DNA from: Acidobacteriota bacterium
Lineage (GTDB): Bacteria > Acidobacteriota > Polarisedimenticolia > Polarisedimenticolales > JAIQFR01
DNA: 64,000 nt
Assembly: GCA_041494445.1 (NCBI GenBank)
Contig: JBGQAU010000004.1
Span: 278 to 64,277, forward strand
Direction of reading: 5' to 3'
Position 1 is the first letter of the stretch. Each line of letters begins with the position of its first letter. The notes below the pieces were generated by a model. That model searched no databases, was not told the DNA's origin, and saw only the letters and a list, made by a program, of their open reading frames with translations. The translations under genes and the position numbers were made by a program. Of the stretch, positions 11,955 through 28,702 are shown one piece after another.

Positions 11955-12738
11955 CCGTGACCGAGTCGGGCGTCGACGCCCCGGAGGTCGACTCGGGGCC
12001 GGGATCGCACTCCTTCTCTTCACGGGGCTCGGCTCGCAGTCGAGCGCCGGGATCCCCGCGCAGGAGTTGCTCGAAGCCGCGGACGCGCCGCGGCACGTCA
12101 TCGAGGAGGGCGTGATCTCGGTGCGGGTGGTCGTGCGGGAGCGTGACGGGACCACCGCGGAGTCCGAGCTGGGGGTGTACGTCAGGGGCTCCGACAACAC
12201 CCTCTGCGTCTTCCGGGAGGGCAAGCAGAAGGGGAGGAAGGTCCTCGTGGTCGGGAACCGGGTCTGGTTGATCGTCCCGGGTTCGAAGCGTCTCGTCGCC
12301 GTCAGTGCCAACCAGCGGCTCCTGGGAGGAGCCTCGGTGGCCGATCTGGCCCGGCTGCGGCTGGCCGACGAATTCGACGGGACTCTGAGGGACGGTGCGG
12401 AATCCTACGAGGACATACCATGCTGGGTCCTGGATCTGAAGGCGAGAAGCGCGAGGTCTTCCTACGCCGCCGGCACGCTCTGGGTCGGAATGAAGGACCG
12501 ACTTCCACGACGGTTGCGCCTGACGCTGCGCTCCGGGAAAGAGGCGAAGGAAATTCTCTTCAGGTCCTTTCGCCGGGAGGGGAGCCGAGCGGTTCTCGCC
12601 CAGATGGAGATCCGGCACCTTCTCGCCCACGAGCGAGGGGAGGTGACCGTTCTCGACTTCCTTCGCTATCAGCCCGCGTCCCTGGATTCAGCGATCTTCT
12701 CTCCGGCGGGTGCGCAGTCCTCCCGCGACGCGCCGTGA
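11947..12738 (+). CDS. LolA-like outer-membrane lipoprotein-sorting protein
   Basis: It has a signal peptide. Its length and the C-terminal pattern (...MEIRHLL...VTVLDFLRYQPASLDSAIFSP) are typical of the LolA_like family found next to FtsX permeases. Confidence 0.6.
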   Translation: MSDRDRVGRRRPGGRLGAGIALLLFTGLGSQSSAGIPAQELLEAADAPRHVIEEGVISVRVVVRERDGTTAESELGVYVRGSDNTLCVFREGKQKGRKVLVVGNRVWLIVPGSKRLVAVSANQRLLGGASVADLARLRLADEFDGTLRDGAESYEDIPCWVLDLKARSARSSYAAGTLWVGMKDRLPRRLRLTLRSGKEAKEILFRSFRREGSRAVLAQMEIRHLLAHERGEVTVLDFLRYQPASLDSAIFSPAGAQSSRDAP

Positions 12739-12832
12739 AATCGTCGACCGGTGAGGGGGCCCGACGTGACCGCGCTCGGGAAGGTTCGCTCGGCGGCAGG
12801 GAGATCCTCGCCGCGGATGCGGGGGTCTTCGA

Positions 12833-13768
12833 ATGAGCCGGTGGTACACCCACGGCTGGAACACGACGACGTCGCTGCGGTTGATTCTCACCATCGTCCC
12901 GCGCGTGCCACGGTGGCTGGTTCCTGCCATGGGCGCCGTGACCACGGCGATCTGCCTCGCCGGCATGAAACGCGAGCGGAAGGCCGTGACACGAAACCTC
13001 CGTCGCGTTCTGGGTCGGGGCGGCTGGCGCCTGCGCCGCGTCGCCTGGAGCCTCTTCTACAACTTCAGCCGCTTCATGGTGAGCTACTGCGATCTGTCGA
13101 CCATGACTCCCGAGCGGCTGGGGTCGCGTCTTGCCGCGGATCCGTCCGGAGAGCATCGGATCCGCGCCGCTCTGGACCGCGGCAACGGCGTCGTCGCCCT
13201 CACGGCCCACCTCGGGAACTGGGAGGTCGCGACGCGGATGCTTCAGGGCACCGGACGTCCCGTACGCGTGGCGATGCAGCTCGAGCGGGCCAACGCGGCG
13301 GAGCGATGGCTGAATCGTCTGCGGGAGCAAGGGGGCGTCCGTGTCCTGCAGGTCGGGCAGGACCCGGGAAGCGTGCTCGCGCTCCGCGCCGCGCTCGCGA
13401 GGAACGAGATCGTGGCGATGCAGGGAGACCGCGCGCCGGGCGATCGGGTTGTCGAGGTCGACCTGTTCGGCGCGCCGTTCCGGTTTCCGCTGGGTCCCTT
13501 CCTGCTGGCGTATGGCTGCGATGCTCCGCTGATTCCGGCGTTCGTCTTGCAGGAAGGTTGGTGGCGCTGGCGCAGCGAGGTCGGCGAGCCGGTCCGGTTC
13601 CCGCGCACCGGAGACCGGCACGCCGACATCGTCGCGGGCGTCTCCCAGTACGCGGCGCAGCTCGAGCGTGTCGTCCGGTGTCATCCGGATCAGTGGTTCA
13701 ACTTCTACGACCTCTGGCCGTCGTCCGAGCCGGCGGGCTCGAATCGTGAGGGGTCACCGCGTGAGTGA
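12833..13768 (+). CDS. LpxL/HtrB-like lysophospholipid (lipid A-type) acyltransferase
   Basis: It has the HLGNWE (HX4[D/E]) acyltransferase motif and an N-terminal TM helix. Confidence 0.7.
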   Translation: MSRWYTHGWNTTTSLRLILTIVPRVPRWLVPAMGAVTTAICLAGMKRERKAVTRNLRRVLGRGGWRLRRVAWSLFYNFSRFMVSYCDLSTMTPERLGSRLAADPSGEHRIRAALDRGNGVVALTAHLGNWEVATRMLQGTGRPVRVAMQLERANAAERWLNRLREQGGVRVLQVGQDPGSVLALRAALARNEIVAMQGDRAPGDRVVEVDLFGAPFRFPLGPFLLAYGCDAPLIPAFVLQEGWWRWRSEVGEPVRFPRTGDRHADIVAGVSQYAAQLERVVRCHPDQWFNFYDLWPSSEPAGSNREGSPRE

Positions 13769-13848
13769 CCCCCTGGCCGGGAGAGGAACCGAGCGAGCGG
13801 CCTCGCGCTCGTCACGGGTCGCGCGCTTGGCATGATACGATATCTTCT

Positions 13849-14142
13849 ATGATCGAGGACGGTCCGCTGAGGCAGGAGCTGAAAGACCTGCTGCTAGCGA
13901 GGTTGCGCCTCCCGGGCGTGTCGGCGGACTCCATTCGAGACGACGATCCCCTCGTGGGGGGGCCGCTGGGTCTGGACTCCATCGACGTGCTCGAGCTCAC
14001 TCTCGCCGTCGAGGAGCGATACGGCTTCAAGATCGCGGACGAGAAGGTCGGGCGGGAGGCGTTCCGGTCGATCGCCAGGCTTGCCGAGTTCGTGCGCCAG
14101 CAGCGTGTCTCCGGCGGTGGCCCGGGATCCGCCCGTACATGA
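13849..14142 (+). CDS. Acyl carrier protein
   Basis: LGLDSIDVLEL is a phosphopantetheine attachment motif. It is about 97 aa from Met 29 of the track ORF, and its stop overlaps the KS start. Confidence 0.8.
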   Translation: MIEDGPLRQELKDLLLARLRLPGVSADSIRDDDPLVGGPLGLDSIDVLELTLAVEERYGFKIADEKVGREAFRSIARLAEFVRQQRVSGGGPGSART

Positions 14143-15353
14143 CCGGCGTGAAGCGCGAGTCTCGTGTCGTCATCACGGGCTGCGGGACCATCAACGCCCT
14201 GGGGCGCGACGTTCAGTCCTCGTGGGATCGTCTCGTCGCCGGCCGATGCGGAATCGGCCTTCTTAGCGCCCCTCTCGGAGGGGGACCCGTTCGGTTCGCC
14301 GCTGCCGTGAGCGAACCGCTGCCGGGAGCAGGCGCGTCGGCGATTTCTTCGCGGACCGCCCGTCTGGCTCTGGCGGCTGCGGAAGAGGCCGCCCGCCAGG
14401 CGAGGCTCTCCGAAATCGACGGCCGCGAGCGCGTCGGAGTGATCGTTGGAACGACGACGGGTGGAATCCGCGAGACGGAGGACTACTTCGTCTCCCGGCA
14501 GCGCGGGAGGCCCGGACGCCGCTCGGCCATCGTCGTGTTCGAGAAGGCCGGGACCTCCGACCTTCTGGCGACGCGGTTCGGTCTCGGGGGACCGCGTTTC
14601 ACGCTCCACACGGCCTGCGCCTCCGGCGCTTCGGCGATCGTGATCGGTGCCGAGTTGATTCGGGGCGGATATGTGGATGCGGTAATCGCCGGAGGCGCCG
14701 ATGCCCTGGCCCGCATGGTCCTGAGTGGTTTTCATTCGCTGCGGGTCGTCGCTCCGGAACCGTGCCGCCCGTTCGACCGCAGTCGATGCGGGCTCTCGTT
14801 GGGCGAGGGGGCCGGGATGATGGTTCTGGAACGAGAATCGCGTGCGGTGGAACGCGGGGCGGAGGTGCTGGCGGTGCTGCTCGGCGGAGGGCAGAGCACC
14901 GACGCGCACCACCTGACAGCGCCGGCTCCGGACGGCTGCGGTGCGGCCCGCGCGATCCGGGCGGCGCTGGCCCGAGCGAACGTCGCCGCGGAGGCGGTCG
15001 ACCACGTGAACGCGCACGGCACGGGGACCCTTCTGAACGACGCGGCCGAGGCGGCATCCATCACGGCAGTGCTCGGGAAGCGGACCCTACGGTGTCCGGT
15101 CACCTCGATCAAGGGGAGCATCGGACACACGTTGGGCGCCGCGGGAGCCATCGAGGCGGTCGTGGCGGTGCAGACCCTACGGACGGGGCTCATCCCGCCG
15201 ACCGTCGGTCTTCGCGAGCCCGACCCCGAATTCGGGCTCGATGTCGTCCAGGATCGTGCCCGCCGTGAGGATGTGCGCGTGGTTGTGTCGAACTCGTTCG
15301 GGTTCGGAGGCGCGAACGCCGTGCTCTGTCTGGGTAGGGCGGACTACCGATGA
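14139..15353 (+). CDS. Beta-ketoacyl-ACP synthase (FabF/FabB-type KS)
   Basis: The Cys-His-His triad is present in the contexts HTACASGASAI, VNAHGTGT and GSIGHTLGAAG. Confidence 0.9.
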   Translation: MTGVKRESRVVITGCGTINALGRDVQSSWDRLVAGRCGIGLLSAPLGGGPVRFAAAVSEPLPGAGASAISSRTARLALAAAEEAARQARLSEIDGRERVGVIVGTTTGGIRETEDYFVSRQRGRPGRRSAIVVFEKAGTSDLLATRFGLGGPRFTLHTACASGASAIVIGAELIRGGYVDAVIAGGADALARMVLSGFHSLRVVAPEPCRPFDRSRCGLSLGEGAGMMVLERESRAVERGAEVLAVLLGGGQSTDAHHLTAPAPDGCGAARAIRAALARANVAAEAVDHVNAHGTGTLLNDAAEAASITAVLGKRTLRCPVTSIKGSIGHTLGAAGAIEAVVAVQTLRTGLIPPTVGLREPDPEFGLDVVQDRARREDVRVVVSNSFGFGGANAVLCLGRADYR

Positions 15354-16309
15354 ACACTCCGCCCGTCGTCACGGGGATGGGTGCCGTCTGTCCTCTCGGC
15401 GAGAGCGTGCCTCAAGCGCTCGCCGGCTTCCGGAGCGCGGGACCCGCGGCAACTCGCGTGGACTTCGATTTCGGCGCGCGATTGTCCCCCAACCACAGGA
15501 GACGTCTCGACAGGCTCTCGCAGCTCGTGCTGGCGGCTTGTCTGGAGGCGGCCGAGCAGGCCACTTGGGGGCAGATCGACGGCGATCGGGCCGCGCTGGT
15601 GATCGGCACCGGCCTCGGCTGTCTCGAGAAAACCGAGTCCTACCTTCGTGGCATCGCGGACGAGGGTCTCGACTACGCGAACGCGATGAACTTCCCGGAT
15701 TCGATGGACAGCTCGCCTGCCGCCCACGTCGCCATGGCCCTCGGTTGCCACGGCCCGACCCTGACCGTCACGCAGCGCGAGATCACCGGCGAGAGCGCGT
15801 TGATACTCGCGGATCTCCTGCTGCGTCAGGGAACCGTGGATGTGGTCATGGTCGCCGCGGGGGACGCCGCGAGCCCGGAGCTCGAACGGCTCCTATCCCG
15901 CTTCGCTCCGGGATTACGGCCGGGGGAAGCCGCCGCCGCGCTCGTCCTCGAGACGACGGAGTCCGCGGCGCGACGTGGAGCGAGAATCATCGGATCGCTG
16001 ATCGGGCACGGGCAAGCCGGTTTTCCGCTCGCCGGCACGGCTCTGAGGTGTGGCGCGCCCGAAGTCCTGGCCAGGGCGCGGGAACTGGCGCTTTCCATGG
16101 CCGGGATTCCCCCCGGTCAGGCAGGCGAGATTCCCACCGTCGTGGCGGAGGAGATCTCGAGCCGCATCGGCTGGGTCCTGGCCGATGGCGTACTCCGCGC
16201 GGTCCTCGCGATGGATCGGATCGCTGCCCGGGCCGGGGGCGCCGCCATCGTGGCGCGACAGGCTCGAGGGGGCTCGTCCGCCGCGGTCGTCCTCGGGCCT
16301 GGACGGTGA
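15350..16309 (+). CDS. KS-like protein lacking the catalytic Cys (chain-length-factor-like)
   Basis: It has a KS N-terminal fold (VVTGMGAVCPLG). The position aligned by eye to the KS Cys reads TVTQREITGESAL, with no Cys. It shares an ATGA overlap with the KS gene. Confidence 0.65.
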   Translation: MNTPPVVTGMGAVCPLGESVPQALAGFRSAGPAATRVDFDFGARLSPNHRRRLDRLSQLVLAACLEAAEQATWGQIDGDRAALVIGTGLGCLEKTESYLRGIADEGLDYANAMNFPDSMDSSPAAHVAMALGCHGPTLTVTQREITGESALILADLLLRQGTVDVVMVAAGDAASPELERLLSRFAPGLRPGEAAAALVLETTESAARRGARIIGSLIGHGQAGFPLAGTALRCGAPEVLARARELALSMAGIPPGQAGEIPTVVAEEISSRIGWVLADGVLRAVLAMDRIAARAGGAAIVARQARGGSSAAVVLGPGR

Positions 16310-16312
16310 GCC

Positions 16313-16984
16313 GTGAGAATCGCGGCGCTCGTTCCCGCCTACGATGCCGAAAGCACGGTGGCCGACGTCGTGGAAGCGACCCGACGGGTTCTGCCCGAGG
16401 TCGTCGTGGTCGACGATGGGTCCTCGGACCACACCGCTACGGTGGCCCGAGGCGCAGGGGCCGTCGTGCTTCGGCTGGACTCGAATGGAGGAAAGGGAGC
16501 CGCGCTCCGTGCGGGTTTCCGGCATCTCCTCGAAGGCGGCGCCGAAGCCGTGGTGACCCTCGATGCGGATGGGCAGCACGACCCCGGCGAGATTCCGCGG
16601 CTCGTGGAACTCTGGAGCTCGTCGGGCGCCGGGGTCGTGATCGGATCGCAGCTCCACCTGCGAGGAGGGATGCTCCCGATCCGCCGCTTCGGCAACCGTT
16701 TCGCGGACCGCGCGATTTCCTTCTTCGCGGGTGTCCGCGTCGCGGGCACGCAAAGCGGATTTCGACTCTACGACGCACGCCTCCTGCGTTCTCTGCGACT
16801 TACCGGCACCGGGTATGAGCTGGAGAGCGAGATCATCGTCAAGGCCGTAAGGTCCGGCTTCCGGGTGCTGAGCATTCCCGTTCAGCTTCGATGGGTCGAG
16901 GGATCGACGACCAGCCACTACCGGCCGTGGCGGGACACCGCCCGCATCTGCGTCAGGGTCGTGGCGAGCCGTCTGCGGCGCTAG
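16313..16984 (+). CDS. Family 2 glycosyltransferase
   Basis: VVVDDGSSDHT and LDADGQHDP motifs are present. Confidence 0.8.
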   Translation: MRIAALVPAYDAESTVADVVEATRRVLPEVVVVDDGSSDHTATVARGAGAVVLRLDSNGGKGAALRAGFRHLLEGGAEAVVTLDADGQHDPGEIPRLVELWSSSGAGVVIGSQLHLRGGMLPIRRFGNRFADRAISFFAGVRVAGTQSGFRLYDARLLRSLRLTGTGYELESEIIVKAVRSGFRVLSIPVQLRWVEGSTTSHYRPWRDTARICVRVVASRLRR

Positions 16985-16986
16985 GG

Positions 16987-17739
16987 ATGTTTCTCCGGAT
17001 TTCCGTCGCGATGCACCTGGCGCTCCTGGCGCTGTTTCTGCGAAACGGGCCGCTGACCCTGGCCCTCCTGCTCGGTTACGGCATCTACCACGGGTTTCTC
17101 GCATGGGGGGTCCTCCATCCCAGGAGCAGGATCTTCGGACCCAACCGATCGCGACTTGCGACGGAGGAGCGGGTCGCGGTTCTGACGTTCGACGATGGCC
17201 CCCACCCCGAGGTCACGCCCCGAGTCCTCGAAATCCTCCGCGCAAGGGGAGTACGCGCGACGTTCTTCCTCGTCGGGAGGCACGTCGAGCGCCATCCGGA
17301 TATCGTTCGACGGATCGCGGCGGACGGACACACGCTGGGTTGCCACTCCTACCAGCATTCGTACCTCTTCTGGTCTCTACCGGCGAGCCGGCTCCTGCGC
17401 GAGGTCCGGGCATCCCAGGCGGCGGTCGAGGCGGCGTCGGGAAGGCCGTGCGTATGGTTCCGCGCCCCCGTGGGAATGAAAAACTGCCTTCTCCACCCGG
17501 TCCTCGCTCGCTTCGGACTCGACCTGGTGAGCTGGGATGTCCGTTTCCCGAAGAGGACGTCCACCGACCGCGAAGGCCTCCGTCGGCACCTCCGGCGGAG
17601 GGTCGCGCCGGGAAGCATTCTTCTCCTCCACGACGGGCACGATCGCAAACCCGAAGGGAATCCCGCCGTGCTCGAGGTTCTCCCCCGGCTTCTCTCGGCG
17701 CTCGACGCGATGGGGTACCGGTGCGTCCCGCTGCTTTAG
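16987..17739 (+). CDS. Polysaccharide deacetylase (NodB homology) with N-terminal TM helices
   Basis: LTFDDGPHP, GCHSYQH and LLLHDG motifs are present. The start is taken at Met 33 of the track ORF, 2 nt after the GT2 stop. Confidence 0.8.
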   Translation: MFLRISVAMHLALLALFLRNGPLTLALLLGYGIYHGFLAWGVLHPRSRIFGPNRSRLATEERVAVLTFDDGPHPEVTPRVLEILRARGVRATFFLVGRHVERHPDIVRRIAADGHTLGCHSYQHSYLFWSLPASRLLREVRASQAAVEAASGRPCVWFRAPVGMKNCLLHPVLARFGLDLVSWDVRFPKRTSTDREGLRRHLRRRVAPGSILLLHDGHDRKPEGNPAVLEVLPRLLSALDAMGYRCVPLL

Positions 17740-17958
17740 GTCGCCTTGACCTTCCGTACCGCGCGGCGGCCGAGTCGCCGAAGGCGGCCGACGGGCGCGA
17801 TCGGTCGCGATTTTGCCGGTGGGACGCACGGAGCCGGAGGAGGTAAGATGCGCGCGGCCGCCGGACGACGGGGACCGGGCGGGGGGCACTCCCGAGCCAC
17901 GGGGGGGCGCTCCCGAGCCGGGACGCGCGCCGGCCCGCGAGGAGTCGAGGAGAACAAC

Positions 17959-19833
17959 ATGCCCGGAAGGCTCGCCGAGCGGGCGATCGTCGCAGCTTCC
18001 GACGTTCTCTGGGTAGTCTTCCAAGGCATCCATAGAAGGTTCGCGCCGCGCGTGTTCCAACCCAAATGGGCTCCGTCGTCCCTGCTCAAGAGCACCCAGC
18101 GGACCCACCCGGCGCTCGGGTTCCCCCGTCGCACCCGCTCGCTCTGCCCCACCTGCGTGAAGGACGCGCGGGCCCGGGTGCTCGCGGGAGAACTGGCCGT
18201 CGAGGACCTCGTCGGCGGACACCACGCGGAAATCGACGCCGACATCATCGAGCGCGACGGCAAGGTGTGGATGGTGAAGACCTGTCCCACCCACGGCCGA
18301 GTCGAGGACGTCCTCTCGACCGACCCGGCGTTCCTGCGCCGGATCGAGTCCCTCGACCCCGGGCGCGATTTCCGAATGGCCCCCGACAGGCTTCACGAGC
18401 ACGGTTCGAGCGCGATTCGCTACGGACGCGGATCGGTGCTCACCATCGATCTCACCAACCGCTGCAACATGATGTGCAATCCGTGTTTCGCGGACGCGAA
18501 CCAGGTCGGCTACGTACACGAGCTGGAGTGGCGAACCATCCAGGGAATCCTGGACAACGCCCTTGAGGTGAGGCCCCGACGGCAGATGTCGGTCCAGTTC
18601 TCGGGCGGGGAGCCGACCCTCTCCCCGTACTTCGTCCCGGCGGTTGCCTACGCGCGGAAGCTGGGGTACATGGCCGTGCAGGTCGCGACCAACGGGATTC
18701 GCTTCGCCCAGGACCCCGAGTTCGCGCGTGAAGCGGCTCGGGCGGGGCTGAGGCTCGCCTACCTGCAGTTCGACGGCGTCGGGAACGAGGCGAATCGCCA
18801 CCGGAACGTGGCCAACTTGTTCGACGTCAAGCGGCGCGCCATCGAGAACCTGCACGCCGCCGGTGTGGATGTCACGCTCGTGGCCACGATCGTCAACACG
18901 ATCAGCAACCACCAGGTGGGCCCCATCATCCGCTTCGTCATCGAGAACATCCACAAGGTCAACGCGCTCGTCTTCCAGCCCGTGTCCTTCACGGGACGGG
19001 ACGAGGACGTGGATGACGAGACACGGGCGCGTCAGCGATACACGCTGGCGCAGCTCGCTCATGACGTGAAGGACCAGCTCGGGACCACCGAGCCGCTGAG
19101 AGACTGGTTTCCGCTCTCCGCCTCCGGACCGTTCGCCGATCTCAAGGATCTCCTATGGGGTCCTCAGGCGGAGTGGGGCTCTCTGAGCTGCAGCTCGCAC
19201 CCCGACTGCGGCGTGGCCACGTTTCTCGTCGTCAACGAGAAGACGAGGCAAGCGGTGCCCGCCATGCGGCTCGTGAACATCGACCGCCTGCTCGAGGACC
19301 TCAGAGTCATCACCGATTCGGCTCGGGGTCGGCGGCTCACGCTATTCCAGACCGCGCTTGCTCTGCTCCGGAACATGAAGGTGAGCGGGTTCCCGGCGGA
19401 CCTGAGCGTCTTGGACCTCCTGAAGACCCTCGACGGGTACAACCGGATGACCCTGGGGATCGCGGACCGGAACCGCCACGTGTGGCGGTCCGTGATGGTA
19501 GGCAGCATGTGGTTTCAGGACCTCTTCAACTTCGACTTCCAGCGGACCGAGATGTGCGTCATTCCTTACGGCACCGAGCGGGGAGAGATCTCGTTCTGCG
19601 CGTACAACACCGGCATCGGATGGCGGAGGATCATCGAGGCCATGCACAAGACCGCGACGACTGCGGAGTGGAACCGTAAGATGGGTCGCCATGCGGTCTA
19701 CGCCGGCGGTCGGCCGATCCCGCTTCCCCCGGTGGAGAGCCCGGCGACCGGGGCGAGCCGTATCGAGACACGACGGGTCGACGAGCGGGCAACGGTCGGG
19801 GCCGCGGCCCGAGAGGGCTCTTCCGGCGCGTGA
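17959..19833 (+). CDS. Radical SAM enzyme resembling the tetraether lipid synthase family (Tes / GDGT-MAS, MJ0619-like)
   Basis: It has the CX3CX2C motif CNMMCNPC. The N-terminus carries SLCPTC...KTCPTHG, a zinc-ribbon/rubredoxin-like pair. The C-terminus has ISFCAYNTGIGWR. It is 624 aa from the ATG at 17959, which has a GAGGAG-type RBS. The family call is from memory of this architecture. Confidence 0.6.
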   Translation: MPGRLAERAIVAASDVLWVVFQGIHRRFAPRVFQPKWAPSSLLKSTQRTHPALGFPRRTRSLCPTCVKDARARVLAGELAVEDLVGGHHAEIDADIIERDGKVWMVKTCPTHGRVEDVLSTDPAFLRRIESLDPGRDFRMAPDRLHEHGSSAIRYGRGSVLTIDLTNRCNMMCNPCFADANQVGYVHELEWRTIQGILDNALEVRPRRQMSVQFSGGEPTLSPYFVPAVAYARKLGYMAVQVATNGIRFAQDPEFAREAARAGLRLAYLQFDGVGNEANRHRNVANLFDVKRRAIENLHAAGVDVTLVATIVNTISNHQVGPIIRFVIENIHKVNALVFQPVSFTGRDEDVDDETRARQRYTLAQLAHDVKDQLGTTEPLRDWFPLSASGPFADLKDLLWGPQAEWGSLSCSSHPDCGVATFLVVNEKTRQAVPAMRLVNIDRLLEDLRVITDSARGRRLTLFQTALALLRNMKVSGFPADLSVLDLLKTLDGYNRMTLGIADRNRHVWRSVMVGSMWFQDLFNFDFQRTEMCVIPYGTERGEISFCAYNTGIGWRRIIEAMHKTATTAEWNRKMGRHAVYAGGRPIPLPPVESPATGASRIETRRVDERATVGAAAREGSSGA

Positions 19834-19847
19834 CGACGGGAGCCGAA

Positions 19848-20000: not shown

Positions 20001-20006
20001 TCTACG

Positions 20007-20795
20007 ATGGCGCGTCACAATAACCCCCCTTCGTTGGATCGGTTCGCATGGGCGGCCGAAGCCGTCGGCTGGCGCTATCGCACGGCCGGGCGTTTCGCGC
20101 AGGGCTTCGTGCGCGGCAAACTCCGTCATGATCCGGTGTACCGGGAACTCCTGAACATCGGCGTGCCACCAGAGGAAGGAGCGGTGTTGGACCTGGGCTG
20201 CGGGCGCGGAATCGCCGTCACGCTGCTGGCGACCGCTTTCCCCTTCGACGTGTCGTCGTGCGCTACAGATCTGACGCCGCCGCGTTGGGTGGGCATGGAA
20301 CGGCGCCCCTTCCATGCCGCGGTGGCGCGCGCGGCTCTGGGCGAAGAGGCGGAGATCAGCACCCAGGACGTGCTCGCCGCGACGCTTCCCCGCTCGCGTC
20401 TGATCCTCCTGATCGATGTGTTGCATTATCTCGGTCGTGACGAACAGGACCGCTTGCTCGAACGTGCGGCCGCGGCGTTGACGGACGGTGGTCTTCTGGT
20501 CATGCGGGAGACCGATGCTGATGGGGGCTGGCGCTATTGGATGACCGCCGCAGCCGAACGGCTCTCGGCATGGCTGCGCGGAGAATGGCACCAGGCTTAC
20601 CACTATCGTGGTCAGTCCGATTGGTCAACTCGGCTCCGGGGATTGGGCTTGGGCGTCGAAACGCGTCCGATGAGCGCCGGAACGCCGTTCGCCAACGTCC
20701 TGTTCGTTGCGCGGCGAGCCGCGGGGTCGGTTACGACGGTTCCGAGAGCGAGTCAGACACGCGCATCCTGCCCATCCGTTTCGGACCTGGGGTGA
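20007..20795 (+). CDS. Class I SAM-dependent methyltransferase (APE-cluster type)
   Basis: VLDLGCGRG is SAM-binding motif I. The N-terminal FVRGKLRHDPVY segment resembles, as I recall, methyltransferases of aryl-polyene clusters. Confidence 0.7.
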   Translation: MARHNNPPSLDRFAWAAEAVGWRYRTAGRFAQGFVRGKLRHDPVYRELLNIGVPPEEGAVLDLGCGRGIAVTLLATAFPFDVSSCATDLTPPRWVGMERRPFHAAVARAALGEEAEISTQDVLAATLPRSRLILLIDVLHYLGRDEQDRLLERAAAALTDGGLLVMRETDADGGWRYWMTAAAERLSAWLRGEWHQAYHYRGQSDWSTRLRGLGLGVETRPMSAGTPFANVLFVARRAAGSVTTVPRASQTRASCPSVSDLG

Positions 20796-20866
20796 ACCGA
20801 CTCTCATGTGGGGTGTCCAAGGCCGAGAACCGCCGCCGCGACAGCGGCGGATGCAATGGGCGCGCT

Positions 20867-22225
20867 CTAACGCTCGCCGGGGAGGGAGACGAGGGAGCGC
20901 AGAGCCTCGGCATCCACCTTGCCGCTTCCCATCGTGGGGAGCTCCTCGAGCACCCGGATCGTTCGCGGCACCTTGAACGGGGCGACCCGCTCCGTCAGGT
21001 GGCCTCGAATGCCCGACGCAGTGGCTTCCGCACCCGGGACGACCGTCACGAACAGCGCGACGGCGGGCTCGCCGTAGCGCCCGTAAGTGACGGCGTACGC
21101 CTGCTCGATGGCGGGGTGCGAGAGGGCGGCTCGCACGATCTCGCTGGTGGAGAATCGCCGTCCTCCCACCTTGACGATGGAATCGGCGCGCCCCAGGAGC
21201 AGAAAGCCGTCCCCCGCGGCCTCTGCGAGATCGTCGGTCCGGTGCCATGAATCGGGGTTCTCCTGCCACGGCGAGCGGATGGCGAGCCGCCCGTCGCCGG
21301 GTTCCACCTTCCACTCGAGGCCGGGGAGCGAGGTCCACGGGCCTTCGTCGTCGCGGGTCGCGATACCGCCCGTTTCGGTAGAGCCGTAGACCTGCCGAAT
21401 CCGCCGGCCCGCAAGGCTGGCGAAGCGCTTTCCGACATCCGCCGGCAAGGGGGCTCCTGAGCTCAGAAACGTGGTGGGCGGCAACGGCTCCCGGACGACC
21501 TCATTCATCAGCCGGTAGTGCGAGGGGACGCCGATGACGAGGTCGGGCCTCTGTTCGCGGATCCGCTCGACCCACGCGTGCGGGGTCGCGCCGCGGAGGA
21601 ACCCCGTGCGACCGCCGGTGGCCGCCGGCAGGTAGAGTCCGTAGATGTAACCCAGGATGTGGAACGGAGGAACAAGACAGAGAACCGTGCACGGCCGGGG
21701 GGAGCGCAGCCAGCCCTGTTCGACCTCGAACTCCCGCGCGAGCTGGTAGGCGCGCTTTACGGTACGCTTGGGTTCTCCCGTGGAGCCGGAGGTCAGGAAT
21801 GCGACCTCGGCCGAGTGCTCTGCCGGGAAGACCGCTTCAAGCGGCGCCGAGCCTCCCTCCCGGACACGGATCGTGGCGCTTCCCTCCGGCTCGTCGGCCG
21901 GGACGAGGACGGCGCCACGGCCACCGATGGCGTCGACACCCCGAGGCTCGGCCCGCGAGGCGGGATCGAGGAGGAGGGGCGCCCGACCGGTCTTCCACGC
22001 CCCGAGGAGCGACGCGATCACGAAAGCCGCGGAGTGCGATCGGACCGCGATCGAGTCCACACCCCCGGAGTGGACGGCGTGAGCGGCATCGGCGGCGAGG
22101 GCGAGTAGCCTTCCAACCGTCCAGGGTTCGCCGTTCTCTTCGAGAAAGACGCGCTCCCGATCCTCGGAGAAGGTGGCTGCGAGGGGAGGCCGGCGTGAGG
22201 CGCCGGCGCGGCTCTTCGGAGTCAT
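20867..22225 (-). CDS. AMP-dependent synthetase/ligase (aryl- or acyl-CoA/ACP ligase)
   Basis: FLTSGSTGEPKRTV and YGSTETG motifs are present. The start MTPKSRAG at 22225 overlaps the ammonia-lyase stop (ATGA). Confidence 0.85.
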   Translation of the reverse strand: MTPKSRAGASRRPPLAATFSEDRERVFLEENGEPWTVGRLLALAADAAHAVHSGGVDSIAVRSHSAAFVIASLLGAWKTGRAPLLLDPASRAEPRGVDAIGGRGAVLVPADEPEGSATIRVREGGSAPLEAVFPAEHSAEVAFLTSGSTGEPKRTVKRAYQLAREFEVEQGWLRSPRPCTVLCLVPPFHILGYIYGLYLPAATGGRTGFLRGATPHAWVERIREQRPDLVIGVPSHYRLMNEVVREPLPPTTFLSSGAPLPADVGKRFASLAGRRIRQVYGSTETGGIATRDDEGPWTSLPGLEWKVEPGDGRLAIRSPWQENPDSWHRTDDLAEAAGDGFLLLGRADSIVKVGGRRFSTSEIVRAALSHPAIEQAYAVTYGRYGEPAVALFVTVVPGAEATASGIRGHLTERVAPFKVPRTIRVLEELPTMGSGKVDAEALRSLVSLPGER

Positions 22226-23736
22226 CTCGAGCCGGTGCCGCTCTCGACCCACGCGGCGATCTGCGCGAGGTCCTCGTCCAGCCGCCGGTCGGCGCGGAGC
22301 ACGGGCGACAGGGAGCGAACGCTCCGCAGCAACAGGCGCCCCTCGCGCGAGAGGCGCGACTCGTCCCGGAGGTGCGCCGCGTTCGACAGCGCGATCAGCT
22401 CGCTGCCCAGCACTCGCGACACGAGCCCGACCACCTCGCTGGCGTTCACAGCGGCGTTGAGCCCCATGCTCACCTTGTCCTGGTTGGCACACTCGGTCGA
22501 GCGGGAGAGCGTGCTGTCCGGGGCCGACCTCTGTACGGCAAGGGACGTGAGGGCGCTGCAGGTGATCTGGAGGCCCTTGATGCCGCAGCCACCGTAAGGG
22601 ACGAGGGTCTCCGGCAGCCCCATGTTGTGTGGACTCTCCACGAGCAACGCGAACTGCCGATCCACGAGGTCCGCGATGGACGCGGCCGCGATCTTGATCA
22701 GGTCCATCGCCAGGGCCACATGGCCGCCGTAGAAGTTCCCGCCAAACAGGACGCCGTCGTCAGGGTCCACCAGAGGGTTGTCGTTGACGCTGTTCAGCTC
22801 GACTCCGAGCACCTGCCGCGTCCACGTCAGGGCGTCCCGCGTCGCGCCGAGCACCTGCGGGCTGCAGCGGATCGAGTATCGGTCCTGGACCGGGCGCCCC
22901 TCGACGCGGGGCGGGTCGAGGAGCCGGCTCCCGCGAAGCGCGGCTCGGATGTTCCTGGCGCTCGCGATCTGTCCGGGATGGGGCTTGACGGCATGTACGC
23001 GCGGATGGAACGCCTGGGACCGCCCGTAGAGCACCTCGGCCGCCAGGGCCGACGCCCGCTCCGCGACGCGCACGACCCGCTCGAGCCGCTCGACGGCGAG
23101 GAGGCCGAGGGCGGTCATGACGGACGTGCCGTTCATGATCGCCAGCGTCTCCTTCGGCACGAAGACAAAGGGCGTCAGCCCCGCGGCGCGCAGCGCCCGG
23201 CTTGCGAGAACGATCTTTCCGCGATGCCATGCCTCGCGCTCGCCGGCCAGCACCGCCGCGACGTACGAGAGGGGCGTCAGGTCTCCCGAGGCCCCCACGG
23301 AGCCGAGGCGAGGGATCGCGGGGACGACACCCCGGTTCAGCAGGTCGCGAATCGCCTCGAGCAAGGAGAACCGGACGGCCGAGTATCCCTTGGAGAGGGA
23401 CACCAGGCGCGCGAACAGGACGGCGCGCCCCTCGGCCTCCGACAACGGCTCGCCGGCGCCGCACCCGTGCTGCTCCATGATGGAGCGGGCGTAGGCGATC
23501 TGCTCGCGCGGGCCGACCGGCTGCGACGAGGCGTTCCCGACGCCCGTCGACACGCCGTAGACGCGCTCCCCCGCGCGAAGCGCGCACTCCAGCGTCACGC
23601 GCGACTGCCGGATCCGTCTCCGCCATCCGCGGCTGGACGCAAGCTCGACCCGGTCGCCGCGAAGGGCGACGCCGATCACGACGTCCGCCGACACCTCACG
23701 GCCGTCGACTCGCACGGCTCGGCGGCGCGATTTCAT
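22222..23736 (-). CDS. Aromatic amino acid ammonia-lyase (HAL/PAL/TAL family)
   Basis: GASGDLTPLSY carries the MIO-forming Ala-Ser-Gly. The start is chosen at MKSRRRAVRVDG, with AAGGA 8 nt upstream. Alternative ATGs lie at 23745 and 23757. Confidence 0.85.
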   Translation of the reverse strand: MKSRRRAVRVDGREVSADVVIGVALRGDRVELASSRGWRRRIRQSRVTLECALRAGERVYGVSTGVGNASSQPVGPREQIAYARSIMEQHGCGAGEPLSEAEGRAVLFARLVSLSKGYSAVRFSLLEAIRDLLNRGVVPAIPRLGSVGASGDLTPLSYVAAVLAGEREAWHRGKIVLASRALRAAGLTPFVFVPKETLAIMNGTSVMTALGLLAVERLERVVRVAERASALAAEVLYGRSQAFHPRVHAVKPHPGQIASARNIRAALRGSRLLDPPRVEGRPVQDRYSIRCSPQVLGATRDALTWTRQVLGVELNSVNDNPLVDPDDGVLFGGNFYGGHVALAMDLIKIAAASIADLVDRQFALLVESPHNMGLPETLVPYGGCGIKGLQITCSALTSLAVQRSAPDSTLSRSTECANQDKVSMGLNAAVNASEVVGLVSRVLGSELIALSNAAHLRDESRLSREGRLLLRSVRSLSPVLRADRRLDEDLAQIAAWVESGTGSR

Positions 23737-23941
23737 AATGCCCATCCTTGTCGTCATCCGAATCGAATCCGGGAGGAGGCTGCCGACAAACAATTTCCTT
23801 CACGGCGCGCGCCTCGACGCTTCCTCCCCAGACCGGTAGAACCGTAGCGGTTGACCGAGGAAGCGTCAAGGGCCCGGCTCGGCTTGTTTCCGCCGGATCG
23901 TCGGCGGAGCTCCGGCCCCGTACGGCTGCCGGGCGCCGGCT

Positions 23942-24367
23942 TCACGGGATCGTGGTGCTGATCGTCGCCTCGACGCGGCTCTCGCCCTCGAGGGTGACGA
24001 CGGCCTCATAAACGTTCAGCGGACCCGTCCGTTTCGCGAGGCGAACGGAGACCCGAAGGGGGCGGTCGACCGGCAGCACCTCCGCGTGGAAGACCGCGTC
24101 GCGTACGCCGACCAGGTACCCGATCCGGGGCGAAACCGCGCCTTCGGACTTGAGACGGGCCAGCGCCTCGACCGCTGCGGCTGCTTGGGCCGCGATCTCG
24201 AGGCCGACGAACGCGGGGGCGCTTCCCTCGGAAGCGAAGGGATTGTTCGCGGGAATCCGGGCGCGGCAGACCAGACGGTCCTCCAGGATCTCCTCGACCG
24301 CTTCCAGGAGCCGCGTGGGGCCCCGGTGGGGAAGGAGGTTCTCGAGGTCGGGTTGCACTGCGGCCAT
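23942..24367 (-). CDS. Hotdog-fold 3-hydroxyacyl-ACP dehydratase (APE-type)
   Basis: It has an LLPHRGPTRLL motif and a 141-aa hotdog-size protein. Confidence 0.65.
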   Translation of the reverse strand: MAAVQPDLENLLPHRGPTRLLEAVEEILEDRLVCRARIPANNPFASEGSAPAFVGLEIAAQAAAAVEALARLKSEGAVSPRIGYLVGVRDAVFHAEVLPVDRPLRVSVRLAKRTGPLNVYEAVVTLEGESRVEATISTTIP

Positions 24368-24371
24368 GGCG

Positions 24372-24716
24372 TCACTTGCCTCCCATCACGACGAGGAATC
24401 CGCTGCTCATCCATTCCTCGCCACGGCGGATGTCGAAGGAGATACTCCCGTCCGCGGCGGGCCGGCTGATCGAAACGTCGAGAACGTCGCCAGGCGCGAC
24501 CGGGCGCCGCAGGCGGAGGAAAGGAACGGCCGAGATCGAAGCCTCACGGCCCGTCACCGCGGCGAGCGCCTGCGCGGCGACCGCCAAATGCGCGATCGCC
24601 GGCAGCACCGGTCGGCCTGGGAAATGCCCGTCGAAGACCGGGTGCTCTCCGGGGATCGAGATTCGGCAGCTCCACCCGTCCGGCGTCGTCGAGCACGCAA
24701 GAAGCGGAAAATTCAT
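24372..24716 (-). CDS. FabZ/FabA-like hotdog dehydratase
   Basis: It has an HFPGRPVLPAI motif and is 114 aa from MNFPLLAC at 24716. Confidence 0.65.
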   Translation of the reverse strand: MNFPLLACSTTPDGWSCRISIPGEHPVFDGHFPGRPVLPAIAHLAVAAQALAAVTGREASISAVPFLRLRRPVAPGDVLDVSISRPAADGSISFDIRRGEEWMSSGFLVVMGGK

Positions 24717-28345: not shown

Positions 28346-28357
28346 GAGAGAATATTG

Positions 28358-28687: not shown

Positions 28688-28702
28688 CCGAAGCGAGAGT
28701 CG

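What the first reader, a model, noticed from the sequence alone, without database searches (positions are those of the whole stretch)
17959..19833. Tes/GDGT-MAS-like radical SAM enzyme embedded in a bacterial ACP/KS lipid cluster
The 624-aa protein combines three elements: an N-terminal Cys pair module (SLCPTC...MVKTCPTHG), a CX3CX2C radical-SAM site (CNMMCNPC), and a long C-terminal domain ending ...GEISFCAYNTGIGWRRI. I recognise this architecture from the archaeal tetraether lipid synthase family (Tes / GDGT-MAS, MJ0619-type), which forms C-C bonds between unactivated lipid tails. Here it sits in one operon with ACP, KS/CLF, an LpxL-like acyltransferase, GT2 and a deacetylase, immediately upstream of a methyltransferase. 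A tail-coupling enzyme inside a polyene/fatty-acyl assembly line suggests dimerised or membrane-spanning lipids (branched-tetraether-like or diabolic-acid-like chemistry). The genetic basis of such lipids in bacteria is still incompletely resolved.
Basis: partly seen in the sequence, partly recalled or inferred. Interest (0 to 1): 0.8.

Follow-up and report, generated by a model that had tools for sequence, protein, structure and literature searches.

The report
Acidobacterial Tes-like enzyme beside pigment cluster
The gene is a real bacterial relative of the archaeal enzyme that welds two lipid tails together, from a large acidobacterial family reported in 2022 but never tested. It lies next to an aryl-polyene pigment cluster only in one lineage, so the two are probably not functionally linked.

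Summary

**Family.** HMM, sequence-to-PDB and AlphaFold2/Foldseek comparisons all put it next to archaeal Tes/GDGT-MAS (7TOL/7TOM, TM 0.79-0.80), not with SPASM or B12 enzymes. It belongs to a large acidobacterial subfamily (>8000 database relatives). This subfamily scores below NCBI's Tes cut-off (322.9 vs 450 bits) and lacks the N-terminal auxiliary [4Fe-4S] cysteine motif. It keeps the rubredoxin-like site, the CX3CX2C site, and the residues matching Tes Met439 and Tyr459 plus three shared C-terminal cysteines.

**Neighbours.** The neighbouring genes form an aryl-polyene (APE/flexirubin-type) cluster: tyrosine ammonia-lyase, coumarate-type ligase, KS/CLF, ACP, ApeI/ApeP dehydratases, LpxL-like acyltransferase, GT2, deacetylase and LolA/ABC export.

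**Synteny.** The adjacency recurs in four other genomes of two sister clades. It is absent from 84 other homologue loci and from three of eight APE loci. An ortholog 85% identical to an APE-adjacent copy has no APE cluster beside it but the same housekeeping genes downstream.

**Reading.** This is most likely a stand-alone lipid tail-coupling enzyme (a candidate membrane-spanning lipid synthase) juxtaposed by descent. Bacterial Tes homologues have been in the literature since 2022 and are still untested. It is a new member of a known kind, of moderate-to-low interest.

The parts
17959..19833 (+). Tes/GDGT-MAS-like radical SAM gene (624 aa)
   Evidence: ORF and motifs; Pfam PF23545 + PF04055; NF045702 322.9 bits, full length, below the 450 cut-off; 7TOL E 3.3e-62; Foldseek TM 0.79-0.80 to 7TOM/7TOL.
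17959..18120 (+). Subfamily-specific N-terminal extension (aa 1-54), with a confidently predicted helix at aa 2-25
   Evidence: Not covered by the HMM and phmmer matches to Tes (NF045702 starts at query residue 59, 7TOL at residue 92). Mj Tes Cys9 corresponds to the first cysteine of the query CPTC motif at aa 63-66 by motif correspondence (PMC9433317). W37, P39, R48, P51, G54 are invariant in 61 subfamily members. pLDDT is 82-97 over aa 1-30.
18121..18318 (+). Rubredoxin-like zinc-ribbon, C63-x2-C66 ... C109-x2-H112
   Evidence: PF23545 aa 55-120. All four ligand positions are invariant in the subfamily. This corresponds to Mj Tes C9X2C12X20C33X2H36 (PMC9433317); the spacer is 42 residues instead of 20.
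18385..18432 (+). Region equivalent to the Tes N-terminal auxiliary [4Fe-4S] motif, with no cysteines here (DRLHEHGSSAIRYGRG)
   Evidence: Mj Tes C73/C77/C80 + His align to a Cys-free stretch in the query. Canonical Tes-type representatives carry CPxxCGxCxxH. The 11 aligned subfamily members at 43% identity or more to the query lack it.
18451..18936 (+). Radical SAM core; CX3CX2C at aa 169-176 (nt 18463-18486)
   Evidence: PF04055 aa 165-326; C169, C173, C176 invariant.
19189..19611 (+). C-terminal auxiliary-cluster/lipid-pocket domain: C411, C417, M517, C533, Y537, C547
   Evidence: M517 aligns to Mj Met439 and Y537 to Tyr459. C417, C533 and C547 are the only C-terminal cysteines aligned between Mj Tes and the query, and all three are invariant in the subfamily.
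17740..17958 (+). 219-bp intergenic region upstream of the rSAM, with a conserved block GGAGGTAAGAT (17839-17849) and an SD-like GAGGAG before the ATG
   Evidence: The block sits at the same position within the upstream region (about 100 nt from its 5' end) in window, L082 and L081; none of 300 shuffles reached the observed sharing. In L081 the upstream genes are on the other strand. Sequence read. No sigma-70 consensus or terminator was found on the + strand.
10039..17739 (+). Forward half of an aryl-polyene-type cluster: LolD 10039-10731, LolCE 10728-11954, LolA-like 11947-12738, LpxL-like 12833-13768, ACP 13849-14142, KS 14139-15353, CLF 15350-16309, GT2 16313-16984, polysaccharide deacetylase 16987-17739
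   Evidence: Pfam/NCBIfam; gene calls and precomputed Pfam hits.
20007..20795 (+). Class I SAM methyltransferase, found only in the window's own assemblies
   Evidence: Methyltransf_23/12/25. tblastn finds it only in window/L085/L086, not in L081, L082, L088 or L089; no such gene is called at L094.
20867..24716 (-). Reverse half of the aryl-polyene cluster: 4-coumarate-type AMP-ligase 20867-22225, aromatic ammonia-lyase 22222-23745, ApeP-like dehydratase 23942-24367, ApeI-like dehydratase 24372-24716
   Evidence: PF00501, PF00221, PF22817, PF22818. TIGR02372 4-coumarate-CoA ligase is the best NCBIfam hit, E 3.6e-32, below cut-off.
8717..9610 (-). PHP-domain metallohydrolase at the 5' edge of the cluster; a homologue recurs near the Tes-like gene in other Acidobacteriota
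   Evidence: PF02811; CehA/McbA family. A homologue lies within 10 kb of the rSAM in 50 of 80 genome loci.

Best explanation
The gene encodes a member of a large acidobacterial subfamily of Tes/GDGT-MAS-like ('class D') radical SAM enzymes.

By analogy with archaeal Tes, the CX3CX2C cluster cleaves SAM to a 5'-deoxyadenosyl radical. That radical abstracts hydrogen from the terminal carbon of a saturated lipid tail held in a hydrophobic tunnel. The C-terminal auxiliary [4Fe-4S] cluster parks the first tail radical as a C-S adduct. A second SAM turnover activates the second tail, and a C(sp3)-C(sp3) bond forms. The expected product is a membrane-spanning (iso-diabolic-acid/brGDGT-type) lipid made from ordinary membrane lipids.

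The enzyme works independently of the neighbouring aryl-polyene cluster. The adjacency is an ancestral juxtaposition retained in part of one acidobacterial lineage, and the gene probably has its own promoter.

- Shown: family placement, fold, the pattern of conserved and lost metal ligands, and the distribution of gene contexts.
- Inferred: the substrate, the product, and independence from the cluster.
For: **Homology and fold.**
- NF045702 Tes is the best family, full length, E 3.2e-96.
- 7TOL phmmer E 3.3e-62 over aa 92-572.
- The AF2 model (pTM 0.81) matches 7TOM/7TOL at TM 0.79-0.80, E 5.6e-30. All other PDB hits cover only the radical SAM core.

**Catalytic apparatus conserved.** The RS motif, the rubredoxin-like CX2C...CX2H, M517 (Met439), Y537 (Tyr459) and the three C-terminal cysteines shared with Mj Tes are invariant in 61 subfamily members. 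These map onto features described in PMC9433317.

**Independence from the cluster.**
- None of 80 genome loci has a cluster gene adjacent to the rSAM; the only cluster-query hits within 10 kb are an ABC ATPase in L001 (36% identity) and a GT2-like match in L023 (26%). The usual neighbours are housekeeping genes (ThiO upstream in 41 of 80).
- Clade B orthologs share the same downstream DUF2203/Oxidored_q6/Methyltransf_28 block. This holds whether the APE cluster (L089, L094) or a CysS...LipA...E2/E3 block (L084, L090, L091) lies upstream.
- L089 is 85% identical to the APE-less L090 copy but only 67% identical to the window.
- APE loci L088, L092 and L093 lack the gene.
- The CLF of this cluster has only 11 relatives at 47% identity or more in 5.8 billion proteins, against more than 8000 for the rSAM.
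- A conserved upstream non-coding block persists in L081, where opposite-strand genes precede the rSAM.

**Literature.** Acidobacterial Tes homologues are already proposed as brGDGT/membrane-spanning lipid synthases (PMC8941075).
Against: - No bacterial Tes homologue has been shown to make membrane-spanning lipids (PMC11868695).
- The proven bacterial synthase is a different radical SAM enzyme, Mss. Tes homologues were found in only 3 of 14 iso-diabolic-acid-producing acidobacteria (PMC13159169).
- The protein scores below the curated Tes threshold (322.9 vs 450 bits) and lacks the N-terminal auxiliary cluster motif, so substrate or electron-transfer details may differ.
- The gene lies next to the APE cluster in 5 of 8 distinct APE loci across two sister clades. 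That is more than a single-genome accident and is compatible with some functional link.
- Only local contigs were examined, so copy number per genome is unknown.
Confidence: 0.5

Rival explanations
1. One reading: the Tes-like enzyme is a tailoring step of the neighbouring assembly line. It would couple tails of the cluster's acyl or aryl-polyene lipid product, or of its lipid anchor, into dimeric or membrane-spanning pigment lipids.
For: The gene lies between the two halves of the cluster in window, L081 and L082. It lies directly after the cluster's deacetylase/B12-rSAM genes in L089 and L094. That is 5 of 8 distinct APE loci and two sister rSAM clades. It is on the same strand as the forward operon in the window. 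The cluster contains lipid-anchoring enzymes (LpxL-like acyltransferase, GT2) whose products carry saturated acyl tails (PMC8253772).
Against: 84 other distinct homologue loci have no APE cluster beside the rSAM. Three APE loci lack it. In L081, L089 and L094 it is separated from the operon by opposite-strand genes. Orthologs at 85% identity occur with and without the cluster, with identical downstream housekeeping neighbours. No ligand position differs from APE-less relatives: residue 413, Ser in the query and Cys in at least 90% of the family, varies inside the APE-adjacent clade itself. The canonical APE cluster has no radical SAM gene. The polyene end is aromatic, not a methyl terminus. 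The rSAM consistently attached to this cluster type is a B12-binding one, not the Tes-like one.
Confidence: 0.12
2. The protein has the Tes fold but different chemistry. This N-cluster-less subfamily would act on a hydrophobic substrate in another way (for example intramolecular cyclisation, cross-linking within one lipid, C-S bond formation or another modification) and would not produce membrane-spanning lipids.
For: It scores below the equivalog cut-off and shares only about 28-30% identity with Mj Tes. The [4Fe-4S]N motif is lost and a conserved 55-aa N-terminal extension is gained. Tes homologues correlate poorly with iso-diabolic acid production in cultured acidobacteria. Related radical SAM enzymes (Gms, TrsS) do other reactions; TrsS is the second-best NCBIfam hit at 214 bits.
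Against: The residues implicated in the Tes coupling step are all retained: the C-terminal cluster ligands, and the positions matching Met439 and Tyr459. The role of the lost N cluster is unknown even in Tes. The full-length fold match includes the C-terminal lipid-pocket domain.
Confidence: 0.3
3. The legacy annotation is correct: a class D radical SAM methylase acting on a pterin (7,8-dihydro-6-hydroxymethylpterin dimethyltransferase). Some JGI records and the Pfam domain name (HMPTM) imply this.
For: The Pfam domain is named Zn_ribbon_HMPTM. Two homologues are named this way by JGI (P0084, P0115).
Against: The founding assignment for MJ0619 could not be reproduced, and the structure shows a lipid tunnel unsuited to pterins (PMC9433317). 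Acidobacteria are not known to make methanopterin (own knowledge).
Confidence: 0.03

Closest known systems
Archaeal tetraether lipid synthase Tes / GDGT-MAS (MJ0619, PDB 7TOL/7TOM; NCBIfam NF045702)
   Same: Full-length homology and fold. Shared features: the rubredoxin-like CX2C...CX2H site, the CX3CX2C radical SAM site, and a C-terminal domain with three shared cysteines plus the Met439 and Tyr459 equivalents.
   Different: About 28-30% identity and below the curated cut-off (322.9 vs 450 bits). The N-terminal auxiliary [4Fe-4S] motif CX3CX2C+His is absent. The rubredoxin spacer is 22 residues longer. There is an extra conserved ~55-aa N-terminal extension. The host is bacterial, and bacterial membrane lipids are fatty-acid based rather than isoprenoid.
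Bacterial Tes homologues reported by Zeng et al. 2022 (PMC8941075) and surveyed in PMC11868695
   Same: Same operational class: BLAST-level similarity to archaeal Tes (E about 1e-62, >20% identity, >400 aa), found in Acidobacteria, and hypothesised to make brGDGT-type lipids. This is the group the gene belongs to.
   Different: The papers read here do not mention the loss of the N-terminal cluster motif or any aryl-polyene context. The best bacterial hits they cite (Koribacter, Solibacter; 40-42% identity to MA_1486) are closer to archaeal Tes than this protein is to Mj Tes, so they may belong to another subfamily. This was not tested.
Mss, bacterial membrane-spanning lipid synthase of Thermotoga/Thermoanaerobacter (PMC13159169)
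   Same: A radical SAM enzyme proposed to perform the same kind of tail-to-tail C-C coupling, with demonstrated product formation in E. coli.
   Different: A different radical SAM family; the authors found no Tes homologue in those organisms and no mss homologue in the acidobacterial genomes they selected. No Mss sequence was available here for direct comparison.
Aryl polyene / flexirubin-type biosynthetic gene clusters (E. coli ape cluster, PMC8253772; Chitinophaga flexirubin initiation, PMC3992019)
   Same: The neighbouring genes match: KS+CLF, ACP, ApeI/ApeP-like dehydratases, LpxL-like acyltransferase, GT2, LolA-like carrier, SAM methyltransferase, and a tyrosine ammonia-lyase plus 4-coumarate-type ligase for the aryl starter.
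   Different: Export uses a LolCDE-type ABC system instead of an RND pump. A polysaccharide deacetylase is present. No ketoreductase or thioesterase was seen in the cluster. Most relatives carry a B12-binding radical SAM gene, and some carry the Tes-like gene; neither occurs in the canonical cluster.

Membership tests
Tes / GDGT-MAS (archaeal tetraether lipid synthase, NF045702) | Radical SAM core with a CX3CX2C [4Fe-4S] site | tested here: met
   C169-x3-C173-x2-C176; PF04055 E 1.2e-18; invariant in 61 relatives.
Tes / GDGT-MAS (archaeal tetraether lipid synthase, NF045702) | N-terminal rubredoxin-like Fe site, C9X2C12X20C33X2H36 | tested here: met
   C63, C66, C109, H112 are present and invariant; PF23545 E 1.9e-16. 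The spacer is 42 rather than 20 residues.
Tes / GDGT-MAS (archaeal tetraether lipid synthase, NF045702) | N-terminal auxiliary [4Fe-4S] cluster ligated by C73, C77, C80 and a His | tested here: not met
   The aligned region (aa 143-158) has no cysteine. The motif CPxxCGxCxxH is present in canonical Tes-type representatives and absent from the 11 aligned subfamily members at 43% identity or more.
Tes / GDGT-MAS (archaeal tetraether lipid synthase, NF045702) | C-terminal auxiliary [4Fe-4S] cluster (3 Cys + labile Met439) and conserved Tyr459 | tested here: met
   M517 and Y537 align to Met439 and Tyr459. C417, C533 and C547 are the only C-terminal cysteines aligned between Mj Tes and the query, and all three are invariant in the subfamily. 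That these three are the actual ligands is inferred; it was not read from the structure.
Tes / GDGT-MAS (archaeal tetraether lipid synthase, NF045702) | Score at or above the curated equivalog cut-off (450 bits) | tested here: not met
   322.9 bits, although the alignment covers 2-483 of 486 profile positions.
Tes / GDGT-MAS (archaeal tetraether lipid synthase, NF045702) | Overall four-domain fold with a lipid tunnel | tested here: inconclusive
   Foldseek TM 0.79-0.80 (target-normalised) to 7TOM/7TOL over about 550 columns. Model pLDDT is 75, with low confidence at the cluster loops. The tunnel geometry could not be inspected.
Tes / GDGT-MAS (archaeal tetraether lipid synthase, NF045702) | Catalyses C(sp3)-C(sp3) coupling of two lipid tails | not testable with these tools
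   Requires anaerobic expression or in vitro assay with lipid analysis.
Bacterial Tes homologues sensu Zeng et al. 2022 | BLASTP E < 1e-50, identity > 20%, length > 400 aa against an archaeal Tes | tested here: met
   E 3.3e-62 to Mj Tes by phmmer, 27-30% identity, 624 aa. The reference used here was MJ0619, not MA_1486.
SPASM/twitch radical SAM maturases | C-terminal SPASM domain (PF13186) with a CX9-15GX4C...-type motif | tested here: not met
   No SPASM hit in Pfam. SPASM families in NCBIfam score 65 bits or less and cover only the radical SAM core.
B12-dependent radical SAM enzymes | N-terminal cobalamin-binding domain (PF02310) | tested here: not met
   No PF02310 hit. Separate B12-rSAM genes do exist beside the cluster in relatives.
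Aryl polyene (APE) biosynthetic gene cluster - membership of the rSAM in it | The gene co-occurs with the cluster across the cluster's relatives | tested here: inconclusive
   Adjacent in 5 of 8 distinct APE loci (window, L081, L082, L089, L094) and absent in L088, L092, L093. The loci are not phylogenetically independent.
Aryl polyene (APE) biosynthetic gene cluster - membership of the rSAM in it | The gene occurs only, or mainly, with the cluster | tested here: not met
   84 other distinct homologue loci have no APE cluster beside the rSAM; only two weak isolated hits (ABC ATPase, GT2) occur within 10 kb. There are more than 8000 rSAM relatives against 11 CLF relatives at 47% identity or more.
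Aryl polyene (APE) biosynthetic gene cluster - identity of the neighbouring genes | KS+CLF pair, ACP, ApeI/ApeP dehydratases, aryl-starter activation, LpxL-like acyltransferase + GT2, LolA-like export | tested here: met
   Pfam/NCBIfam hits, compared with the E. coli ape gene table. No cluster-encoded ketoreductase or thioesterase was seen.
Mss (bacterial membrane-spanning lipid synthase) | Sequence homology to Tmari_0825-type Mss with its six conserved blocks | not tested
   No Mss sequence or model was available in the tools. The literature treats Mss and Tes as separate families.

The most novel reading that the evidence does not exclude
In this acidobacterial lineage the Tes-like enzyme, possibly together with the B12-radical-SAM or SAM methyltransferase genes that sit beside it, has been recruited to the aryl-polyene pathway. 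It would couple alkyl or methyl termini of two pigment-lipid molecules (or of their acyl anchors) into bola-shaped, membrane-spanning aryl-polyene lipids. That would be the first secondary-metabolite use of Tes chemistry. The 5-of-8 adjacency across two sister clades does not exclude this.
Probability: 0.08. Interest if true: 0.8.

Novelty: new member of a known kind. Interest (0 to 1): 0.33.

Why it matters
Branched GDGTs are widely used palaeotemperature and pH proxies. Their biosynthesis in Acidobacteria is still unresolved: the proven bacterial synthase Mss was not detected in the acidobacterial genomes screened, and Tes homologues remain the untested candidates.

This locus adds three things:
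- A clear description of a very large acidobacterial Tes-like subfamily that has lost one of the four metal sites. This matters for choosing enzymes to test and for gene-based surveys of brGDGT producers that count 'Tes hits'.
- A caution that genomic adjacency to a polyketide-type cluster is lineage-specific and should not be read as pathway membership.
- A handful of natural loci (window, L081, L089, L094) where a pigment read-out could cheaply test whether Tes chemistry has been co-opted.

It does not by itself make the open question more testable than any of the thousands of other homologues.

Tried and rejected
- **Wrong frame.** My first choice for the gene before the rSAM (17103-17846) was the wrong frame and had no family hits. 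The called gene is the polysaccharide deacetylase at 16987-17739.
- **Promoter/terminator scan.** The consensus scan of 16900-21000 found no sigma-70 site and only one minus-strand terminator-like hairpin, no more than shuffles give. It says nothing about operon structure.
- **Metagenome scan.** The scan with the CLF protein returned one weak, unrelated locus (L087, 28% identity). The APE-side survey was done through the search for homologous proteins plus contig look-ups instead.
- **AlphaFold database.** A Foldseek search against afdb50 was meant to tie the subfamily to cultured species with known lipids, but the library was unavailable.
- **Apparent partner gene.** The FAD oxidoreductase directly upstream of the rSAM in many Thermoanaerobaculia loci looked like a possible geranylgeranyl-reductase-type partner. 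It is ThiO glycine oxidase (303 bits against a 250.8 cut-off), so it was dropped.
- **Sigma-54 idea.** I considered that the conserved upstream block is a sigma-54 promoter. The -12 GC is not conserved in L081 or L082, so I rejected it.
- **Alternative start.** I considered that the ATG at 17848 is the true start. It is out of frame in L082 and is ATA in L081, so I rejected it.
- **First NJ tree.** Three sequences (L001, L037, L050) were mis-extracted. The tree was rebuilt from called proteins. Bootstrap values were not printed, so I cite none.
- **Cluster-member look-up.** It gave no organism names.


Full report
**1. Observation**

Window 17959-19833(+) translates to an uninterrupted 624-aa protein. 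Pfam detects an N-terminal HMPTM-type zinc ribbon (aa 55-120) and a radical SAM core (aa 165-326). It finds no SPASM or cobalamin-binding domain. An identical protein is present in NCBI and JGI assemblies.

An SD-like GAGGAG precedes the ATG. One assembly annotates a 661-aa product, which would start at the in-frame ATG at 17848. That codon is not conserved in the two closest syntenic relatives, and family alignments begin at the 17959 start.

**2. What family it is**

- The best NCBIfam model is NF045702, 'tetraether lipid synthase Tes'. It aligns over positions 2-483 of 486 (E 3.2e-96), but at 322.9 bits it is below the 450-bit equivalog cut-off. The next family, TrsS, scores 214 bits. SPASM, NirJ and MoaA families score 65 bits or less and cover only the core.
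- Against PDB sequences the only strong match is GDGT-MAS 7TOL (E 3.3e-62, query 92-572).
- An AlphaFold2 model was built on 61 relatives (pLDDT 75, pTM 0.81). It matches 7TOM/7TOL with target-normalised TM 0.79-0.80 (E 5.6e-30). Every other hit (MoaA, BlsE, SkfB, HydE, viperin and others) covers about 230-250 columns at TM about 0.5.

The 'unrelated rSAM subfamily' refutation does not apply.

**3. How it differs from archaeal Tes**

The Mj Tes structure paper defines four metal sites (PMC9433317):
- a rubredoxin-like Fe (C9X2C12X20C33X2H36);
- an N-terminal [4Fe-4S] cluster (C73, C77, C80 + His);
- the radical SAM cluster;
- a C-terminal [4Fe-4S] cluster with labile Met439, plus conserved Tyr459.

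In the query and 60 relatives, C63, C66, C109, H112, C169, C173, C176, C417, M517, C533, Y537 and C547 are invariant. I aligned the query with Mj Tes and with 50%-identity cluster representatives from a 1.84-billion-protein library. This showed:
- Canonical Tes-type proteins (28-35% identical to the query) carry CPxxCGxCxxH at the N-cluster position.
- All 11 aligned members of the query's subfamily (43% identity or more) have a cysteine-free LHxHG(S/T)Sx(I/M)(R/K)YGRG there instead.
- C417, C533 and C547 are the only C-terminal cysteines aligned between Mj Tes and the query. Together with M517 they give the expected 3 Cys + Met set. That these are the actual ligands is an inference.
- The subfamily also has a conserved ~55-aa N-terminal extension with a confidently modelled helix and a rubredoxin spacer 22 residues longer.

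It is therefore a Tes-like enzyme that fails two strict membership criteria: the curated score and the N-terminal cluster. The role of that cluster is unknown even in Tes.

**4. The neighbourhood**

Gene calls and Pfam hits give the following.

| Strand | Genes |
|---|---|
| - | PHP metallohydrolase (8717-9610) |
| + | LolD, LolCE, LolA-like, LpxL-like acyltransferase, ACP, KS, CLF, GT2, polysaccharide deacetylase (10039-17739) |
| + | Tes-like gene (17959-19833) |
| + | class I methyltransferase (20007-20795) |
| - | 4-coumarate-type AMP-ligase, aromatic ammonia-lyase, ApeP-like and ApeI-like dehydratases (20867-24716) |

This is the parts list of an aryl-polyene/flexirubin-type cluster (PMC8253772; PMC3992019), not a generic fatty-acid cluster. 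The canonical cluster contains no radical SAM enzyme.

The rest of the window holds no ether-lipid or other membrane-spanning-lipid genes among the ORFs scanned. It encodes a Zn phospholipase C, KaiC/KaiB/KaiB with a histidine kinase, a PBP1, a TPR protein, an M36 peptidase and NhaA.

**5. Synteny, from the rSAM side**

The protein has more than 8000 database relatives, nearly all from Acidobacteriota MAGs (Thermoanaerobaculia, Polarisedimenticolia, Terriglobia). I fetched 80 loci from species-representative genomes (58-65% identity, +/-10 kb).
- tblastn with the cluster proteins found no cluster gene adjacent to the rSAM. The only hits within 10 kb were an ABC ATPase in L001 (36% identity) and a GT2-like match in L023 (26%).
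- Typical neighbours are housekeeping genes. ThiO glycine oxidase lies directly upstream in 41 of 80 loci.

Closer relatives split into two sister clades:
- **Clade A** (75-83% identity to the query). L081 and L082 show the same 'between the two halves of the cluster' position as the window. In L081, two opposite-strand B12-binding radical SAM genes separate the deacetylase from the Tes-like gene.
- **Clade B** (63-69% identity). L089 and L094 have the forward APE operon, then a B12-rSAM on the other strand, then the Tes-like gene. L084, L090 and L091 have a CysS...LipA...E2/E3 block upstream instead.
- All five clade B loci share the same downstream genes (Oxidored_q6, Methyltransf_28, TPR in all five; DUF2203 in four).
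- The L089 protein is 85% identical to the APE-less L090 protein, 87% to APE-adjacent L094, and 67% to the window protein.

Near-identical orthologs therefore exist with and without the cluster next door.

**6. Synteny, from the cluster side**

The CLF of this cluster has only 11 relatives at 47% identity or more among 5.8 billion proteins. Eight distinct loci could be inspected:

| Locus | Tes-like gene | B12-rSAM after the deacetylase |
|---|---|---|
| window | yes | no |
| L081 | yes | yes (two copies) |
| L082 | yes | no |
| L089 | yes | yes |
| L094 | yes | yes |
| L088 | none within 10 kb | yes |
| L092 | none within the ~5 kb of contig remaining | yes |
| L093 | none within the ~7 kb of contig remaining | yes |

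A B12-binding radical SAM gene on the opposite strand just after the deacetylase is present in six of the eight. It is absent only from the window and L082. That gene, not the Tes-like one, is the radical SAM enzyme that travels consistently with this cluster type.

**7. Transcription**

Junctions inside the forward operon range from an 8-bp overlap to a 94-bp gap. The Tes-like gene follows a 219-bp gap and is followed by a 173-bp gap. A block GGA(G/A)GTAAGAT lies at the same position, about 100 nt into the roughly 200-bp upstream region, in window, L082 and L081. None of 300 shuffles reached the observed sharing. It is kept in L081, where the upstream genes are on the opposite strand, so it belongs to the rSAM's own 5' region. 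Consensus promoter and terminator scans were uninformative. Co-transcription is neither shown nor excluded.

**8. Interpretation**

The most economical account is as follows. An ancestor of clades A and B placed this rare aryl-polyene cluster next to a widespread, vertically inherited Tes-like gene. Some descendants kept the arrangement, some lost or moved the cluster, and some moved the rSAM.

Three observations support this:
- The family's core function cannot depend on the cluster.
- The window copy shows no substitution at any ligand position relative to APE-less relatives. The only notable difference, Ser at position 413 where at least 90% of the family has Cys, varies within clade A itself.
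- Chemically, Tes abstracts hydrogen from the terminal methyl of a saturated chain, whereas aryl polyenes end in a phenyl ring.

I therefore favour a stand-alone lipid tail-coupling role on membrane lipids (confidence about 0.5). The main rival is that this N-cluster-less subfamily does some other chemistry on a hydrophobic substrate (0.3).

**9. What is known**

- Zeng et al. 2022 reported 456 bacterial Tes homologues, including Acidobacteria, and proposed a role in brGDGT synthesis.
- Lloyd et al. 2022 noted bacterial homologues in the IPR034474 network.
- Sahonero-Canavesi et al. 2022 showed that a different enzyme, Mss, makes diabolic acids, and found Tes homologues in only 3 of 14 iso-diabolic-acid-producing acidobacteria.
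- A 2025 survey states that bacterial Tes homologues remain experimentally unconfirmed.
- A 2026 review adds nothing further on them.

The gene is thus a new member of a known, still uncharacterised group. The missing metal site and the lineage-specific pigment-cluster context are useful details, but they do not amount to a new kind of system.

**10. Verdict**

- Novelty: new member of a known kind.
- Interest: about 0.33.

Noticed in passing
L081:6963-9800(-), L088:12468-13853(-), L089:15043-16500(-), L092:7015-8430(-), L093:3045-4520(-), L094:8382-9824(-); no counterpart in the window: A B12-binding radical SAM gene sits on the opposite strand just after the deacetylase (one small ORF intervenes in L093, a Tricorn-like gene in L089) in six of eight aryl-polyene loci of this type (two copies in L081). 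The window and L082 lack it; the window instead has a class I methyltransferase at 20007-20795. This may be a cluster-specific C-methylase or cyclase, which canonical APE clusters do not have.
   Followed up: partly
window 8717-9610(-); e.g. L006:~8912(+), L017:~8940(+), L061:~2019(-): A PHP-domain (CehA/McbA-type) metallohydrolase recurs near the Tes-like gene in 50 of 80 genome loci. It lies directly upstream on the same strand in six loci (three of them labelled Polarisedimenticolia) and 6-10 kb upstream on the opposite strand in the remaining 44 loci (many labelled Thermoanaerobaculia). It also marks the 5' edge of the aryl-polyene cluster in window, L088 and L089. Whether this reflects a functional link or ancestral linkage is unexplained.
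   Followed up: partly
window 17839-17849 (within intergenic 17740-17958): A conserved non-coding block GGA(G/A)GTAAGAT lies at the same position, about 100 nt into the roughly 200-bp region upstream of the rSAM start, in window, L082 and L081. It may be a promoter -10 region or a regulatory site. In the window it overlaps an ATG (17848) that would give the 661-aa product (P0300) annotated in one assembly.
   Followed up: partly
proteins P0159, P0155, P0163 (representatives at 38-41% identity): Some relatives of the subfamily have lost essential sites. P0159 has no CX3CX2C motif. P0155 lacks the C-terminal cysteines. P0163 lacks the Met and the C-terminal motifs. They may be pseudo-enzymes, fragments or misassemblies.
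   Followed up: no
window 19195-19197 (codon 413 of the rSAM): Position 413 is Cys in at least 90% of 61 family members (motif C-G-C-H-P-x-C-G). It is Ser in the query and P0002 and Thr in P0005. It varies within the APE-adjacent clade, so it is probably not a cluster ligand.
   Followed up: partly
window 24969-26246(+): A zinc-dependent phospholipase C gene lies immediately after the ApeI-like dehydratase. It was found only in the window's own assemblies among the loci searched. A relation to the lipid cluster was not examined.
   Followed up: no
window 26561-30264(+): A KaiC-like ATPase, two KaiB genes and a PAS/HisKA_3 histidine kinase form a circadian-clock-like module in a non-cyanobacterial (acidobacterial) genome.
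   Followed up: no
L089:6288-10948 and L094:2236-6940: Clade B versions of the cluster carry a duplicated KS/CLF pair (two KS and two CLF-like genes around the ACP), unlike the single pair in the window.
   Followed up: no
window 48346-52680(+): A 1444-aa fungalysin-type (M36) metallopeptidase with a PA domain, an unusually large secreted protease.
   Followed up: no
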